Source: Eledone cirrhosa (lineage: Eukaryota). Taken from it: a DNA stretch of 64,000 nt. The stretch is from assembly GCA_964016885.1 (NCBI GenBank), contig OZ024742.1, positions 19,220,001 to 19,284,000 of the forward strand. Reading direction: 5' to 3'. Each line of letters opens with the position of its first letter. The first letter of the stretch is position 1. The translations under genes and the position numbers were made by a program. Of the stretch, positions 9,296 through 62,636 are shown piece after piece. The notes beneath the pieces were generated by a model. It was not told the origin of the DNA. It searched no databases and saw only the letters and a program-made list of their open reading frames with translations.

Positions 9296-10163
9296 TACTA
9301 CATCTACAGAACCACTACAGCAGGATACTACATCTACAGAACCACTACAGCAGGATACTACATCTACAGAACCGCTACAGCAGGATACTACATCTACAGA
9401 ACCACTACAGCAGGATACTACATCTACAGAACCACTACAGCAGGATACTACATCTACAGAACCACTACAGCAGGATACTACATCTACAGAACCACTACAG
9501 CAGGATACTACATCTACAGAACCACTACAGCAGGATACTACATCTACAGAACCACTACAGCAGGATACTACATCTACAGAACCGCTACAGCAGGATACTA
9601 CATCTACAGAACCACTACAGCAGGATACTACATCTACAGAACCACTACAGCAGGATACTACATCTACAGAACCGCTACAGCAGGATACTACATCTACAGA
9701 ACCACTACAGCAGGATACTACATCTACAGAACCACTACAGCAGGATACTACATCTACAGAACCGCTACAGCAGGATACTACATCTACAGAACCGCTACAG
9801 CAGGATACTACATCTACAGAACCGCTACAGCAGGATACTACATCTACAGAACCACTACAGCAGGATACTACATCTACAGAACCGCTACAGCAGGATACTA
9901 CATCTACAGAACCGCTACAGCAGGATACTACATCTACAGAACCACTACAGCAGGATACTACATCTACAGAACCACTACAGCAGGATACTACATCTACAGA
10001 ACCACTACAGCAGGATACTACATCTACAGAACCGCTACAGCAGGATACTACATCTACAGAACCGCTACAGCAGGATACTACATCTACAGAACCACTACAG
10101 CAGGATACTACATCTACAGAACCACTACAGCAGGATACTACATCTACAGAACCACTACAGCAG
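9296..10163. repeat. 30-bp minisatellite, about 29 copies of TACTACATCTACAGAACCRCTACAGCAGGA
   Basis: Perfect tandem units with a single A/G variable position. Confidence 0.97.
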
Positions 10164-26233: not shown

Positions 26234-26751
26234 TTAACTGTATACTTTGTGAAAAGTTCTATGGAATTTATGCAGGCAGATAGAAAACAAATCGGTGCGT
26301 CTATTTATTATAGAATCTAGGTTAGAGATAATGGTAAATTTTTCATTTAGGCAGAGATTACAGATTTTAGATAGAGAGCTGTTCAAGTATGAGGATCCAG
26401 AAGAAATCTTCTTCCAAAAGATGGTATATTTAATGTTTTTGTCTTTTAAGGACCATATGAGTTCTGAGAGAGCAGTGTTAGTTCTTTTAAGTTTGTATTT
26501 GAAAGATGAATGATGATTATAGAGACGAGCTTTAAAAGAGGTGGAAGTGGAGCCAAAATAGGTGAAGGAATTGGTGCTAGTTATAATTTTACATTCATAA
26601 ATTAAGTTTTTATCGAGACAATGGTTGTTGAGAGGACATTTATTTTTAATGCGGCAGTTGCAATTAGAGAGATTATTAATGAGTGATCTAGTGTTATCTA
26701 TAGAAGGAATTGGATTGGAGAAGTTGTTTGCGATAGGAATAATAGGATAAT
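26234..26751 (-). pseudogene. PLE C-terminal Cys linker + GIY-YIG endonuclease (truncated ORF)
   Basis: CNCRIKNKCPLNNHC, LIYECKI..TYFGSTSTSFKARLYNHHSSF, CNLCLNEK, INRRTD..CLH. The first about 10 aa of the tracked ORF come from the inverted arm. Confidence 0.9.
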
Positions 26752-27801
26752 ACTTTTCACAAAGTATACAGTTAATATTCAATTCTTTATCAATTTAGAA
26801 TCTTTTCTCAAAGGCACATATACATACACCTCTTTAAAATATACCCATCTACCTTACTTTAAAGGGCATTATACACTCTATAATACTTGTTTACTCATTA
26901 CCCTCATTCTATCTTCACCTTGTAAAATCATAACATATACATTTGTTGTTTTTGACGTTAGAATATTCATCCGCAATCATTATTATTTTTTCTCTCTATC
27001 ATAAATCTTTTTAATCTCAATTTCATCCTTAATTTATTATTTTTTTCTCCCCATCAACGAACTCATTATTAATACATATTAACTCTTTATTCGCATATAT
27101 TATCAATTCAATCAATATACAAACTTTAACTTCACATTATTTTTCTCAAATCCTTCTACACACAAACCTTAATAATTTTTCTCTTCGTTAATTTTGAAAT
27201 TGCCACAATACATACATTTCTCTTTTTTTGACGTTAGAATATTCATCCAAAATTATTATTTTTTTCTCTCTATCTTCATACATAATTTCCCTTCGTTAAT
27301 TCTCAAATTCCTTTAATTTATACATTATCTTCCAACGGTTCCCAACCTCTCTATGTTAAAACAATATATCTTTTTCTCAGTTATAAAAACTATCTCTTTC
27401 TCTCTATCACCCATCTCTCCCTCTCCACCTTCACTCTCATCTCCTCCCCCTTTTTTTCATCCTTTCCACCCCACCCCCTCCCTAAATAAAATATTTTTTC
27501 CTCGCACATATCCTCCCTTCGTTAATTTTCAAAATTTTTAATTTATACATTATCTTCCAACGGTTTTCAACCTCTCTATATAAAACAATATATCTCCTCT
27601 CAGTTATAAAAACTATCTCTTTCTCTCTATCACCCATCTCTCCCTCTCATCTCCTTCCCTTTTCATCCTTTCCACCCCCCCCCCTCTCTAAATAAAATAT
27701 TTTTCCCAATATCACACATCAATCTAAAACCACTTTTCATATGTTGATTTAAAACTGCACTATCCACAAGTGTTTTTTAGCCTTCATATCATGTTCTCCT
27801 G

Positions 27802-37701: not shown

Positions 37702-38770
37702 GATCCTGGGGGTACCGGAAAAACTTTTGTAACGAATTTGATTCTCGCTAAGATTCGTTAGGAGAAAAAAGTTGCGTTGTCCGTTGCATCGTCCGGGATC
37801 GCTGCTACTTTGCTGCCGGGAGGCAGGACAGCACATTCAACCTTTAAATTCCCTTTGGATTTAGTAAAAACTGAGACACCAACATGCAATATCAGCAAGA
37901 GTTCACACAAAGCTATGGTTCTCAAAATATGTTGCCTCATTGTTTGGGATGAGTGCACAATGGAACACAAGGGTGCCCTTGAGGCATTTGACGAGGCCCA
38001 GAAAGACATTAGGGATTCTACGGCTCCTATGGGTGGCGTAACCCTTCTGCTATCAGGGGATTTTCGGAAAACGCTGTCTGTCATCCCCAAATGGACAAGA
38101 GCTGATGAAGTGCGTGCCTGTCTTAAGTCGTCCATGTTGAGGCTCCAGGTGAATAGTTTGTACCTGAGCACAAATATGCGTGCTCATTTGCATGGTGACA
38201 ACATGTCTGCAGCACAGAACATTTTAGCACTTGGTGAGGGCAATATCCCTGCGGATGACAAGGGCGGCATAGCAATCGACACCCTGTGCAACATTGTGAG
38301 CAGCCCTTCTGACCTTTGGGAAGCAGTTTTTCCTAATGTCTCATCTAACTTTAAAAACCTCGATTGGCTCAGCGAAAGAGCCATCCTTGCTCCGAAAAAT
38401 ACCATGGTTAATTTTATTAACGAGCAGCTGATTGAGATGATTCCCGGTAAAGAGCACATCTTCAAATCAGACCCCGACAATATCGTTAATTATCCGGTTG
38501 AGTTATTAAATCTCCTTGAGCCCCCAGGGCTCCCACCTCACATTATTAAGCTTAGGGTTGGCTGTCCCATTATGCTAATAAGGAACTTGCGTCCACCAAA
38601 GCAGTGCAACGGTACTCGCATAGTCGTCAAGTCACTGACACCTACTTGATTGAGGCCACCATTGTAACGGGGTGCGGAAGAGGGGAGAATGTTTTCATTC
38701 CAAGGATGAACCTTTTCCTCTCGGCGTCAGATATCCTGTTCGATTTCCGGCGATCACAATTCCAGGTCTA
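37702..38770 (+). pseudogene. Helitron PIF1-family helicase domain, disrupted
   Basis: PGGTGKTF, VASSGIAATLLPGGRTAHSTF, IVWDECTM, LLSGDFR, STNMR, RAILAPKN, PIMLIRNL..CNGTR, FIPRM. A stop precedes 37777 and a frameshift lies near 38645. Confidence 0.92.
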
Positions 38771-43361: not shown

Positions 43362-43419
43362 GACATATATATGTATATATATCTATATATATATATGTAT
43401 ATATATATATATGTATATA

Positions 43420-43488
<69 letters not shown>

Positions 43489-43501
43489 GTATATATATAT
43501 G

Positions 43502-43532
<31 letters not shown>

Positions 43533-43573
43533 GTATATATATATATGTATATATATATATGTATATATATATG

Positions 43574-43604
<31 letters not shown>

Positions 43605-43912
43605 GTATATATATATGTATATATATATATATGTATATATATATATGTATATATATATATGTATATATATGTATATATATATGTATATATATATGTATAT
43701 ATATATATATGTATATATATATGTATATATATATATATGTATATATATATGTATATATATGTATGTATATATATATGTATGTATATATATATGTATACAT
43801 ATATATATGTATATATATATATATGTATATATATATATGTATATATATATATGTATGTATATATATATGTATGTATATATATATGTATGTATATATATAT
43901 GTATATATATAT

Positions 43913-43952
<40 letters not shown>

Positions 43953-43976
43953 GTATATATATATATGTATATATAC

Positions 43977-44071
<95 letters not shown>

Positions 44072-44110
44072 CATATATATATACATATATATATACATAT
44101 ATATATATAC
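43362..44110. repeat. (TA)n/(TATG) compound microsatellite
   Basis: Direct reading; similar arrays at 14230, 22415, 38966, 41000, 44869, 45629 and 48990. Confidence 0.95.
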
Positions 44111-44868
44111 AGATAAGCAGAACAAGTAAAATTCAAGCAATTTTCCATCGGATTTATGAGGTTTTACAAAGCGAAACTGATTAGTAAGGGCCACTAGGAG
44201 AGGTAAATATTTATATTATATTTTTTAATGTATTTTAAAAAATTGATTGAATTTTACTTGTTCTGCTTATCTTAATATTAAAGTTCTGGTGTATCAAATT
44301 AATACCATTGAACAACCTTGAATCATTGACAACCTATGTATTTCTGGGGGTACCTAGTATCCCTGGACATATTAACTTCAATCTCTTTCTCCGTCTGTTG
44401 AGAACAATCCTGCTGTTCTATTTAGCTGCTATTTTTTTTAGTAGTAATTGTAGACAGCAAGTCTTTGATTTTCCCGCTTTTACTTCGGTCCAGTTTACAT
44501 ACGGGTCACTTTTACGACCTTTCAGACCTTTATTTGCTGGCAGGATGTTATATATTTTGTCGTTCCTGGGACATTTAGCCCTAGGAAGGGAAAATGCTTC
44601 TCTGATGAGCTTTGGTTTTCCATCATAAATCCATCGGATTTATGAGGTTTTACAAAGCGAAACTGATCAGTAAGGGCCACTAGGAGAGGTAAATATTTAT
44701 ATTATATTTTTTAATGTATTTTAAAAAATTGATTGAATTTTACTTGTTCTGCTTATCTTAATATTAAAGTTCTGGTGTGTCAAATTAATACCATTGAACA
44801 ACTTTGAATCATTGACAACCTATGTATTTCTGGGGGTACCTAGTATCCCTGGACATATTAACTTCAAT
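44111..44868 (+). mobile_element. Retrozyme-like family G: 486-nt period with 238-bp terminal redundancy and a short inverted 5' piece
   Basis: 44145-44382 is repeated at 44631-44868; 44111-44144 is the inverse of about 44238-44272; (TA)n on both sides. Confidence 0.85.
44596..44677 (+). ncRNA. Type I hammerhead ribozyme, family G
   Basis: ttct CTGATGA gctttg..tcataaatcc-atc-ggatttatga..caaagc GAAA ctgatcag TA aggg; canonical core with G10.1-C11.1 and palindromic stem III. Confidence 0.85.
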
Positions 44869-44944
44869 ATATATATATACATATATATATATACATATAT
44901 ATATATACATATATATACATATATATATATACATATATATATAC

Positions 44945-44989
<45 letters not shown>

Positions 44990-44990
44990 C

Positions 44991-45021
<31 letters not shown>

Positions 45022-45551
45022 CATAAATATATATATATACATATATATATATACATATATATATATATACATATATATATATACATATATATACATATAC
45101 ATGTAATAATTATATAAATTCGAGCGCCGGATTCATCAGGAAGCTCGCTCTTATCTAGACACTAAATTTTCCAAAGTGTTCGCGCCAAGAATTCATTTCA
45201 AAATGGCTAAAAAGTTTGGCTCGAGGTAATATAATTATTACATAATTATTGGAAAACTCAAAATACGGACGAAACCATGGTAGAGGTATTTAAATGTATT
45301 CTATTTTCTCCTAGTTTATTTTACACCTAATTCTGTTTAGTTGACTATATCTGGGCGATTACGCTGTCGAAATATTCGATAAATATTCCGCTACGGCCGA
45401 CGCGAAGCGCTAGTTTCGGTTATTTGTCGGAGATTTCTTCATAGAAGCCTCATTCTTATAGCCTGGTCTATTCGATTTTTTATATAGTTAATTATGCTAA
45501 TTGGGAGAGGAAATAGTATATATTTTATCTTGTGATTCTATAGACATGTTT

Positions 45552-57631: not shown

Positions 57632-57675
<44 letters not shown>

Positions 57676-57714
57676 AGGATGAATATAAAATGAAAGTGCT
57701 TTTTTTAAAAAGGA

Positions 57715-57855
57715 ATTTATTAGGTATTGACATATGTTTCTGTAACAGACGGAATACCTATGTATCGCTGCTTGCGTAATCATATAATGTTAGCAAGTAT
57801 TCGATAGCAAATGTATAATCAGTTGTCACTTCTTCAGAGATTTTGGATAAATTGG
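57715..57855 (-). ncRNA. Possible hammerhead in the pseudo-LTR (second copy 60823-60962)
   Basis: CTGAAGA agtgaca..tgttaca GAAA catatg TC with palindromic stem III ACATATGT, but proximal stem I is poor and a competing hairpin exists. Confidence 0.4.
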
Positions 57856-58310
57856 ATAAAATCAGAAAAATTGAAGTATTTATATTAGTAATAGAGGAAG
57901 AAAAAGAGGGGATAGTATATGACAGATGGTAAATTAATTTACTGCTAAACAAGTATATAATGGGTTTCTAATGAGAATACCATGAGTAAATCTAAATAAG
58001 AATTTTGGGAGTGCCAATTTTAATCTCTACTTGACCAATTGGACAGTGGACAGGGCTGGTCATTTGGTGCAGTAGTATTAATTATAAAGTGTCAATTGGG
58101 GAAGGGGGAGATTTCGATTGCTACTAAATAACATCAATGCTAGTAGCCAGCTGGTATATGCATTAGGGAATTGAATCAAGAAATCAGAAATCTCATTTTA
58201 TCTATAGCAGTTTATATTAAAAGGTAAATAATAGAAGAGTTGATAGAATTAAGACTAATAAAGAATGTTAATATCTATTTTGACAATCAAACGGAGATAG
58301 AGACAGGCGT

Positions 58311-60622
58311 TCAATCCTGGTAGTATTTATAATATGAAAATGTAGATTTTAAGCGATGGTTACAGTATAACGATCGCTCTATTCTGTTATTTAATAAAAT
58401 GTTTTTGGATTTCATAATACAAAATAATTCTACATTACATAATTTACAAAATTCCTGTTCATGGGAATATGGGGGGGGGGGCAGCCGCTATTATATCCCA
58501 TTTTAGGTGAAATTGTTGGTTATTTTCACGCAGCTGCCAAGCCTTGTCTGCGAGTGTTGTTACATAACGCTGGTTTTCATGTTTTATCGAGTAACGATGT
58601 CTATAAAGGCGTGATTTGAAGGAGGTGGCTGTAGATCCCACATAGTACCACTTCTGTCTATCCGATTCGATAGTACATTTGTATACGATGTTGCGTTCAA
58701 GACACTGATTGTTCAACGGACACATTCCTGGTTGGACACAGTTGCAATTATAATTTTGCGTTGTTGTATTGCCATGGATGGGTTGATGAGGTTGCTTATG
58801 TAGGACAGGATGTTGTTTGTTGTTTTGTGATGTTATAGCTAATGTTTTACGTGTATTGTTATGTGTTGGAAGGCGTTTATACAACCGTTTTGCGTTAAGC
58901 TTTTTTATATGTTGTTCAATATTAGGGGCGGTTGAATATGAAAGTCGAATAGTGTTAGGGTTTAAGATTTTATTATATTTATGTGATGTTGGAAAGTGTT
59001 TTTTAACTAATCGAAAGAATTTTGAGGGTAGATTGGTTTTAATAGAGTTGTTATAGACCGGGTTGTACCAAATATACTCCTTACATCGCCTTCTGTTTGG
59101 TGGTGTGCGACTATTATTGTGTCTATTGCGGTAGTGTATGTATGGTGGTGATTTTGTGCTATTTCTACTCCTATGGGATTTATTTTGGGTGTTTTGGTGA
59201 TCTTCGACTATATACTCTATATTATCTAGGTGACCGGCTTTCCTAAGTGCATCATCATAATATTCGGCATGTTCTTTGAAGGTCTGTTGGTTGGACGACA
59301 GGCGGGAGATTCTAAGAGAAACATTTCTAGGGATGGATTTAATTATAGAGAGTGGATGGTTAGAACTCGTATTTACATATTTAAGGTTCTCATTTAGTTT
59401 ATGGAACGGTTTAATCGTATCTGTATTGAGATTCAAAGTAACATCAAGGAAATTGACCTCTTTGAGGTTATATTCAAATGTAATATTTAATCCTAGTTCC
59501 TTAAAAAGCTTTCTGATATTTTTACGCATCCTTTCTAAAATATGCTTAACTAATAGGAGCGCATCGTCACGGTAGATTCCACCGTGGAGATCCTTGAATT
59601 TTCCTTGTAATCTGTGGGTGATATAAATTCCCACAAGATCTGTTACTTCCGCCGAATCATTAGAACCCATAGTGATATCAAAATTAGAAGGTCTATCTTT
59701 GCGAACCCAGTAGCTATCATCGAATTTAACTATAGTTTTCCTCGCTTCCATAATAATTTTTATTTCAGCATCCGTAAGGTCGGAATTATCCTTAGCGAAC
59801 GAAAGAGCTTCATGTAGAGTATCAGGTGAAATTGAGGAATAATATTCATCAATATCAAACTGAATAAATTTTGATTTTTTCTTATCAGTAATGTTATTAA
59901 ACCATCTTATTGCTTCATGAGTGTTACCCCATAGTTTAATCTCTACTTTAACCTTAACTTGGGGGATAATTCTGTCTAGTATATATTTGCTAATTTTGCC
60001 TATATCAGATTTAGAGGGGCATATAAGTCTAATATTAGGGTTAGTATCGAAGTTTACCTTGTGGTCCTTCAGGTTGAAGCATGGTATAGCTGGTGTTAAG
60101 GGTTGCGTTCTATCGTCAATACAAAGTTTTTTTAACAATTTCACATGCCGAGTTGTTGATGTTTTTAAGTGTAGCTTCATTAGTTTTCCTGTATTTTTTA
60201 TGCAATTCCTTACGGATGAAGTTATTGTAAGTGTCCACATCCATGGTATATACGTTTGATGTTTTGTCTGCTCTAACAATAATTCCATTGGCGTTTTTTA
60301 GATTATTGAGCAGTGCCGTGATGTCATTCTATAGTTTATTGTTCTTCCGTTTTGTAAATTTGATCTCCATGATCATATCCATTAGGTCTTGTTCAAATGC
60401 ATCCAAAAGTGGGTTTGAGGGTGGGTTCTTGTAAGATTTAAATCCAAATTTATCCTTGTTAAGATCCGATGTTTGGTTTATACGGCTTTTGTCAAAATGG
60501 AATGTTTTCCATCTGATTCGTCGAATAAAATCATTGGTCCTTCGTATCATACCTAGAATATATTCCCTTTTTGCCTGAATAGGTATGTTTTTTAACGACA
60601 TATCCAATTGGTGCCTTTCCAT
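58311..60622 (-). pseudogene. PLE reverse transcriptase + C-terminal GIY-YIG endonuclease, with one in-frame stop and two homopolymer frameshifts
   Basis: SLKNIP, IVRADKT, IRLICP, FDIDEYYSSI, MGSNDSAE, IYRDD, VNFLDV, SSNHP, CNC..CPL..C, IVYKC..YYVGST..FKSRLYRH. After the G-run (58471-58482) it continues CKLCNVE..LNNRIE..CNH to TGA at 58311. TAG at 60329; A-run shift near 60130. Confidence 0.93.
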
Positions 60623-62636
60623 TTTAGAGGCGTATACTGAATTAGTTGCTCAACTGTATAGGAGATTAATAAAATTTCAGGTTATCAATAATGTAGTGAT
60701 AATATATCGTTACGTTAGAGATGAACAGCGTACGTGCAGGTTTGCTCAACGAGTATAAATTATATTCCGGAGAAAATGTAGAAAGGATGAATATAAAATG
60801 AAAGTGCTTTTTTTTAAAAAGGAATTTATTAGGTATTGACATATGTTTCTGTAACAGACGGAATACCTATGTATCGCTGCTTGCGTAATCATATAATGTT
60901 AGCAAGTATTCGATAGCAAATGTATAATCAGTTGTCACTTCTTCAGAGATTTTGGATAAATTGGATAAAATCAGAAAAATTGAAGTATTTATATTAGTAA
61001 TAGAGGAAGAAAAAGAGGGGATAGTATATGACAGATGGTAAATTAATTTACTGCTAAACAAGTATATAATGGGTTTCTAATGAGAATACCATGAGTAAAT
61101 CTAAATAAGAATTTTGGGAGTGCCAATTTTAATCTCTACTTGACCAATTGGACAGTGGACAGGGCTGGTCATTTGGTGCAGTAGTATTAATTATAAAGTG
61201 TCAATTGAGGAAGTGGGAGATTTCGATTGCTACTAAATAACATCAATGCTAGTAGCCAGCTGGTATATGCATTAGGGAATTGAATCAAGTAATCAGAAAT
61301 CTCATTTTATCTATAGCAGTTTATATTAAAAGGTAAATAATAGAAGAGTTGATAGAATTAAGACTAATAAAGAATGTTAATATCTATTTTGACAATCAAA
61401 CGGAGATAGAGACAGGCGTTCAATCCTGGTAGTATTTATAATATGAAAATGTAGATTTTAAGCGATGGTTTCAGTATAATAAAATGTTTTTGGATTTCAT
61501 AATACAAAATAATTCTACATTACATAATTTACAAAATTCCTGTCCATGGCCGTCATTTATCTGGTTCCTTTGATATGTCACCTGTCAATCAAAGTTGTTT
61601 CTTTTAGCAGAATTACTGCTGTATGAAGTAAGGGGTTGTATGGTTGAAACGCTCGCACCCTGCTGCAGCCTTCCCGGCCTGTAGACACCCACACCCATGT
61701 CCATGTTTCGCGCAGGCGTGATACATATGGGCACCTATACACACACAACAATCACATACACACCCGCAACTGTATTATATGCGACAATCACAGTAAATAT
61801 TAAATGTGCCGCGAATAATTGGAAACAATTTTTAAACAATAGAAAAACATTTCAAAAAACGTTTCAGAAAAACACACCCTCAAAATACCTTAAAAAACAC
61901 ATTTAAAAAAAAACTTTAAAAAGAACATTTTAAAAAAATGCTTGAAAGAGCCAGAAAAACACAGCCTCAAAATATCTTAAAAAACACATTAAAAAAAAAC
62001 CTTTAAAAAGAACATTTAAAAATAATGCTTGAAAGAGCCTGTCAAAAAAAATTATTTCAAAAGTATTTCTGAAAAATATACATACGTATATATACACACA
62101 CACACTGTACTCAGGAAAGTATATATACCTAAGACGCATATACTTGAAACAATACATATGGATGCACATATATATAGATGAAAAAACGGAAAATATACAC
62201 ATACATAAGCATAGGGTTATATAAGATATAGAAGGACTGAAGATCCAAGGGACTGAGTAAGAATCTGCACATCAACCATGCACATGAGACAGATTTCATG
62301 ACAATATAAGTCTGATTTTGTTTACAACCTTATCTGTGGTTTTGAATTTTAATTTTAATTTTAATTTTCGATTTTTGATGTTTAATTTGCAATTTTAATG
62401 TTGGAATTGATGTTGGATTTAAGGTTAATGTTGAGGTTAATTCTAACTTTTCCTGCCGTTGCTATATACATGCCTACAACACAAGCCGGAGAAACGATTG
62501 TAATATGTCTAATACATTTTTATTCGTCGCACCACTGATTCTCCGTTTCTTATATGATATTATACTCTGCTCTGTAAGAGCATCGAGTGCTCAAACGGCT
62601 TACCGCATACGGACGCTTTAAGCATCCCACACCAAT

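What the first reader, a model, noticed from the sequence alone, without database searches (positions are those of the whole stretch)
44111..44868. Family G: 486-nt monomer with a canonical hammerhead and terminal redundancy
The 238-bp block 44145-44382 recurs exactly 486 bp later, so the insert is about 1.5 turns of a non-coding unit with one complete ribozyme per turn. The first turn begins inside the stem II loop. A 1.5-mer is what reverse transcription around a circular or multimeric RNA would leave (inference). It has the best core in the window: G10.1-C11.1, GUA triplet, palindromic ACTGATCAGT.
Basis: partly seen in the sequence, partly recalled or inferred. Interest (0 to 1): 0.75.

Follow-up and report, generated by a model that had tools for sequence, protein, structure and literature searches.

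The report
Hammerhead retrozyme with Penelope insertion footprint
This is one of several hundred genomic copies of a 486-base non-coding repeat that carries a predicted self-cutting RNA motif and sits in TA microsatellites; its copies end at two fixed sites, one on each side when the copy is back-to-back, which suggests it is pasted in by a Penelope-type jumping-gene enzyme, likely from a small RNA circle.

Summary
Real, and a new member of a known kind. The block recurs 486 bp later, but with 3 mismatches. The hammerhead is well formed and covaries across 18 relatives. The unit is a family: 585 exact ribozyme-core hits in G000, in arrays of over 15 units. Start points vary (78 distinct among 89 arms), but 3' ends do not: 86 of 88 lie at two sites, 92 and about 196 nt past the predicted cut. 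25 of 27 back-to-back copies have one of each, none the same site twice. This is the Penelope 'tail' signature; a protein-coding Hydra-clade family in this genome follows the same rule. So: a non-LTR retrozyme, likely moved by a Hydra enzyme. Arrays are single-haplotype, which favours but does not prove a circular template. One locus (L243) joins this unit, Hydra coding sequence and another retrozyme without TA between them. Cleavage, expression and the partner enzyme are untested. The scan found this layout before, in other families of this genome.

The parts
43365..44110 (.). Left (TA)n-rich microsatellite, insertion target
44111..44144 (-). Short inverted arm (unit positions about 95-134); outer end at site 1, blurred into TA from 44105
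   Evidence: 33 of 34 identical to the reverse complement of 44239-44272
44145..44868 (+). Direct arm, 1.49 units, 5'-truncated in the stem II apex, 3' end at site 2
44145..44186 (+). 3' half of the first-turn hammerhead, with a C>T change at 44182 in the palindrome
44187..44672 (+). Predicted cut-to-cut 486-nt monomer; folds at z = -5.76, 0 of 100 shuffles as stable
44596..44677 (+). Complete type I hammerhead: bulged stem I, core 44602-44608, stem II with a long extension, 3-bp stem III with GAUC loop; predicted cut after 44672
   Evidence: cleavage not tested
44765..44868 (+). About 104-nt tail between site 1 (44764; 44278 in the first turn) and site 2 (44868; 44382 in the first turn)
44283..44313 (+). 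Tail hairpin A with a 2-nt bulge (again at 44769-44799); nearly invariant in the relatives aligned
   Evidence: relatives were chosen by this motif, so its conservation is partly built in
44338..44372 (+). Tail hairpin B just before site 2 (again at 44824-44858); 5 of 15 pairs change on both sides
44869..45102 (.). Right (TA)n-rich microsatellite

Best explanation
This is a dispersed and tandem 486-bp non-coding repeat with a type I hammerhead motif (a non-LTR retrozyme) whose copies sit in TA tracts and end at two fixed sites, and it is likely copied in trans by a Hydra-clade Penelope-like enzyme, probably from a circular monomer. Shown: the family, the TA targets, the two fixed 3' ends, variable 5' ends, the one-of-each rule in back-to-back copies, single-haplotype arrays. 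Inferred: arrays are transcribed, the hammerhead cuts after 44672, the monomer is ligated into a circle; the enzyme nicks both strands of a TA tract and starts reverse transcription at site 1 from one DNA end and at site 2 from the other, on the same RNA; each copy runs round a variable distance and the two 5' ends are joined at short microhomologies. Here the site-2 copy ran 1.49 turns and the site-1 copy about 40 nt. Terminal redundancy then lets some arrays grow by unequal exchange. I put about 0.9 on 'retrozyme moved by a Penelope-type enzyme' and about 0.65 on the circle given that.
For: 3' ends: 86 of 88 arms at two sites in 61 loci; 45 of 51 in 40 further stretches, 7 of which were picked by the site-1 pattern; 437 exact site-1/TA junctions in G000, control 0. 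Back-to-back pairs: 25 of 27 and 7 of 11 (one a duplicate) are site 1 + site 2, never the same site twice; 19 of 25 in sister families, by my reading of the table. Junction overlaps of 1-11 nt in most pairs. The two arms share a haplotype: 23 differences against 79 expected, 19 loci. Units differ by 0.76 substitutions within loci and 6.73 between, 117 full units; no indel at the cut site. No two of 39 loci share two unit-specific variants. Hammerhead: 13 of 22 pairs change on both sides, core invariant, slid controls far lower. Hydra motifs RWK, DKT, CxCx5C in this genome's elements; a coding Hydra family has two ends about 95 nt apart, one of each in 10 of 30 loci. PMC11167929: two internal start sites define the tail; the first lies 85-92 nt past the ribozyme cut (my subtraction), as site 1 does here (92). 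L243 chimera.
Against: No coding element with ends homologous to this family was found: none contiguous in the loci screened, none in 60 loci of two Hydra families, out of more than 50,000 candidates. Tail hairpin A was not seen in the Hydra family A tail. In vitro the anole enzyme did not need ribozyme cleavage and used unprocessed RNA, and 8 of 9 Xenopus retrozymes did not cleave. Periodic variants with broken phase in L038, L040 and L057 show DNA-level growth, so array length is no measure of reverse transcription. Young homogeneous multimers would also give single-haplotype daughters. Units were split at an intact cut motif, so damaged junctions are under-counted. L243 is one case and could be a later deletion. 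Rfam gave no hammerhead hit.
Confidence: 0.6

Rival explanations
1. Same element and same Penelope-type enzyme, but the template is an uncut linear multimer read through an existing array, or a linear monomer with end-to-end template jumps; no circle is needed.
For: Internal initiation on unprocessed RNA in vitro; weak cleavage of many animal hammerheads; long arrays exist as sources; L243 suggests template jumps occur.
Against: No shared ordered variants between loci; 6 of the within-locus variant types recur, about chance for 103 variants. Locus-private variants are fixed in all units, some in both arms. No scars at the cut site in 117 units.
Confidence: 0.3
2. The unit is the detached pseudo-LTR of a coding Penelope-like element; copies are 5'-truncated ends and arrays arose only by DNA-level amplification.
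For: Model discussed in 10.64898/2026.07.22.740005; DNA-level growth seen in three arrays; Penelope-like end geometry.
Against: Upstream of the hammerhead every long copy continues into another unit, not into coding sequence. Many dispersed copies of 1.1-2 units have separate 5' ends, which needs copying across the unit joint. 22 array haplotypes among 39 loci (some due to partial cover).
Confidence: 0.08
3. A local duplication of 238 bp in non-functional DNA.
For: None beyond the single-locus view.
Against: 341 matches in the 39 candidates scored of 1888, middle conserved; covarying ribozyme.
Confidence: 0.01

Closest known systems
Metazoan non-LTR retrozymes (Cervera and de la Pena 2020, PMC7229834; Li, Clavereau and Pollet 2026, 10.64898/2026.07.22.740005)
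   Same: Non-coding tandem units, low GC, one type I hammerhead per unit, dimers to multimers, co-existing with Penelope-like elements, which both papers name as likely movers.
   Different: 486 nt is above the 170-400 nt of the 2020 paper but inside the 51-972 bp of the preprint. Stem II carries a long extension. Fixed 3' ends, inverted arms and TA targeting were not in the passages I saw. RNA circles are not shown here.
Insertions of endonuclease-bearing Penelope-like elements, Hydra clade (Craig et al. 2021, PMC8557442)
   Same: (TA)n targets, canonical hammerheads, 5' truncation, partial tandems, inverted 5' copy, tail at one end only.
   Different: No ORF; tail about 100 nt rather than 30-40 bp; strict one-site-per-arm rule counted here; no sequence link to a coding family found.
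Poseidon element of the green anole in vitro (Frangieh et al. 2024, PMC11167929)
   Same: Two internal start sites downstream of the hammerhead, AT-rich targets, both strands cut and extended.
   Different: Different clade, coding RNA, sites 30-40 nt apart; linear template in the assay.
Non-autonomous Chlamys elements such as MRC1 (PMC8557442)
   Same: Non-coding passengers of a Penelope-like element, in head-to-tail copies.
   Different: Green algae; similar to their partners at the 3' end; the paper's abstract says this group lacks canonical hammerheads.

Membership tests
Metazoan non-LTR retrozyme | Short tandem unit, dimers to multimers, dispersed | tested here: met
   485-486 bp units in arrays of over 15 units at many loci
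Metazoan non-LTR retrozyme | One type I hammerhead per unit | tested here: met
   core intact in 162 pieces that cover it fully, one changed partial piece (pieces were split at the cut motif); covariation; Rfam no hit
Metazoan non-LTR retrozyme | Non-coding, low GC | tested here: met
   longest ATG frame 34 aa, GC 34.6%; no Pfam hit for the 125-aa stop-free frame
Metazoan non-LTR retrozyme | Self-cleavage in vitro | not testable with these tools
   needs an assay
Metazoan non-LTR retrozyme | Expressed as circular and linear monomers | not testable with these tools
   needs RNA data
Penelope-type insertion (works like) | 5' truncation, fixed 3' ends, inverted 5' copy, one-sided tail | tested here: met
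Hydra-clade dependence | (TA)n insertion preference and same end rule as coding Hydra elements | tested here: met
Hydra-clade dependence | End sequence shared with a coding Hydra family | tested here: inconclusive
   none in the small sample screened; one chimera, L243
Autonomous Penelope-like element | RT plus GIY-YIG ORF | tested here: not met
   no ORF in the unit
Plant LTR retrozyme | Type III hammerheads in LTRs, high GC | tested here: not met
   type I topology, tandem units, 35% GC

The most novel reading that the evidence does not exclude
One Hydra-clade enzyme complex copies a single ribozyme-made RNA circle round and round from two fixed starts 100 nt apart, one for each side of a break in a TA tract, and can jump between RNAs: locus L243 would be one insertion built from three RNAs (this retrozyme, a Hydra mRNA and a second retrozyme) that still obeys the one-site-per-arm rule, a direct genomic trace of retrozymes riding Penelope enzymes.
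Probability: 0.35. Interest if true: 0.65.

Novelty: new member of a known kind. Interest (0 to 1): 0.42.

Why it matters
How animal retrozymes move has been proposed (circle plus a Penelope-like enzyme) but, in the papers I read, not shown. This young family gives exact start sites, a short defined RNA and intact candidate enzymes in the same genome (frames of 700+ aa), so the circle model and the two-sided priming model can be tested in vitro. The element class is known and the scan has met the same layout in other families here, so the surprise is moderate.

Tried and rejected
Rfam, whole window and insert: no hammerhead family, only microsatellite-driven miRNA hits. Runs: no RNA holder listed; laying four contig sets of one study says nothing on expression. 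Partner search: two Hydra families (60 loci) and the Hydra pieces beside fetched loci had no shared end; L101 and L185 looked like partners but TA tracts and other elements separate them. One search's end table was spoiled by TA in the references and redone. I first took the coding elements for Neptune; the motifs say Hydra. The 125-aa stop-free frame at 44251 has no Pfam hit. A pile-up of 5' ends around the ribozyme (24 of 89 in the best 50-nt window, 4 of 2000 simulations) is weak: part of it lies in an AT-rich stretch with TA microhomology, and the third set (7 of 51 in positions 25-75) was chosen for an intact core and cannot test it. Higher-order circles for period-3 and period-4 arrays: rejected, the phase breaks; period 2 in L037 and L048 stays open. 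Target-site duplications cannot be read in TA.

Full report
Observation. The insert lies between two TA tracts. 44144-44382 recurs at lag 486 with three mismatches, so the direct arm is 1.49 units. Unit position 1 = window 44145; the predicted cut follows position 42.

Family. A DNA search of G000 gave 1888 candidates; 39 were scored, 341 matches, with the middle conserved. Exact patterns: 585 hits for 27 bases of the ribozyme, 437 for the site-1/TA junction, 854 for a tail motif shared with sister families; reversed controls 0. Arrays reach over 15 units.

Ends. One search examined 61 loci: the window, the 38 best-scoring loci, and 22 family members from a position-ordered set of 77 on C1 (sister families and two duplicates of L194 left out). 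86 of 88 arm 3' ends lie at site 1 (129-136; 54) or site 2 (235-246; 32); the other two are a disrupted arm and a 38-nt side hit. 5' ends take 78 positions among 89 arms. Of 27 back-to-back pairs 25 have one site 1 and one site 2, one is disrupted, one reaches a contig end. Forty more stretches (33 chosen by the ribozyme pattern, 7 by the site-1 pattern; two gave no hit at the identity filter) gave 45 of 51 ends at the two sites and 7 of 11 pairs with one of each, one a duplicate; the rest are diverged or disrupted. Sister families: 19 of 25 pairs, my count. No pair had the same site twice.

Template. Among 117 full units, substitutions average 0.76 within and 6.73 between loci; 18 private variants are fixed across a locus (12 in one divergent locus), some in both arms; no indel lies within 6 nt of the cut. 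The two arms differ at 23 sites against 79 expected from other loci. Of 103 within-locus variants 6 types recur between loci and no two loci share two. Each insertion thus passed through a one-unit bottleneck, as a circle gives, but a young uniform multimer is not excluded. Repeating variants with broken phase in L038, L040 and L057 show later growth at the DNA level.

Structure. In 18 of the 23 distinct ribozyme regions found (truncated, redundant and unrelated ones dropped) the core is invariant, 90% of cells pair and 13 of 22 pairs change on both sides, against at most 4 in slid controls. In 23 of 39 tails, hairpin B has 5 of 15 such pairs; hairpin A is nearly invariant but was the selection motif. 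Relatedness inflates the shuffle controls. The monomer folds at z = -5.76. The minimum-energy fold of the ribozyme region alone is not the active fold. Rfam finds nothing.

Enzyme. The window holds Penelope-like remnants at 58459-60297 and 26234-26794 with RWK, DKT and CxCx5C, the Hydra marks of PMC8557442. Two young families have frames over 700 aa among 50,957-64,629 candidates. One ends at two sites about 95 nt apart, with one of each on opposite strands in 10 of 30 loci, two of them likely duplicates. Neither shares sequence with this unit. In L243 a 233-nt arm of this family ending at site 2 abuts, head to head and without TA, Hydra coding sequence, whose 3' UTR switches at a 5-base overlap to a 472-bp retrozyme ending at its own shorter end in TA. 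It is one case; a later deletion could mimic it.

Mechanism. Likely: transcript, ribozyme cut, ligation to a circle, two-strand nick in TA, reverse transcription from site 1 on one side and site 2 on the other, joining of the 5' ends at microhomology. Cleavage, circle and partner are inferred. The main rival is an uncut linear multimer; the anole enzyme used unprocessed RNA in vitro.

Literature. Seen: 10.64898/2026.07.22.740005, parts 1-3 of 5 (supplements closed); PMC11167929, parts 1-3 of 4 (supplements not read); PMC8557442, passages, section 11 and a supplement search; PMC7229834, passages; PMC4209133, passages, which already propose a circle as template for more-than-unit copies. Searches showed no paper on inverted two-site retrozyme insertions, judged from listings; older subscription papers on Penelope structure and unseen supplements may hold the one-of-each rule.

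Earlier notes. The scan reported the same layout for other families of this genome (unchecked AI notes); none matched this sequence. I had the retrozyme and two-end reading before that look-up; the notes pointed me to Hydra.

Verdict. New member of a known kind; interest 0.42.

Noticed in passing
window 57672-61545 (-): Near-complete Hydra-clade Penelope-like copy with about 900-bp terminal repeats, a stop and a frameshift early in the ORF and a cut-short 3' end of the ORF; ends in TA.
   Followed up: partly
window 26234-26794 (-): GIY-YIG remnant of another Hydra-type family (Pfam E 0.0037, below cut-off) with a long repeat-rich 3' region and inverted copies upstream.
   Followed up: partly
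window 27808+, 39307+, 42335+, 51387+, 51885+, 41802-: Six further type I hammerhead-like motifs of other families.
   Followed up: no
L243 1182-2710: Head-to-head chimera of this family, Hydra coding sequence and a 472-bp retrozyme, with no TA at the joints.
   Followed up: partly
L101 2060-2170 and 8175-8265; L199 2867-2980: Tail-only pieces that begin right at site 1; in L101 they cap both outer ends of an inverted Hydra composite. Unexplained.
   Followed up: partly
L034, L102, L106, L108: Sister retrozyme families with periods 469, 478 and 482 bp, the same tail and the same end rule.
   Followed up: yes
L049 and L219: Two loci on different contigs share the same inversion junction (8-base overlap) with different arm lengths.
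   Followed up: no
L037, L048: Private variants alternate with period 2 along the array: dimeric template or later duplication.
   Followed up: partly
window 37762-38649 (+): 295-aa stop-free frame that looks like a PIF1-type helicase of a Helitron (resemblance recalled, not tested).
   Followed up: no
window 9296-10163: 30-bp tandem array, 28.9 copies, 98% matches, open in several frames.
   Followed up: no
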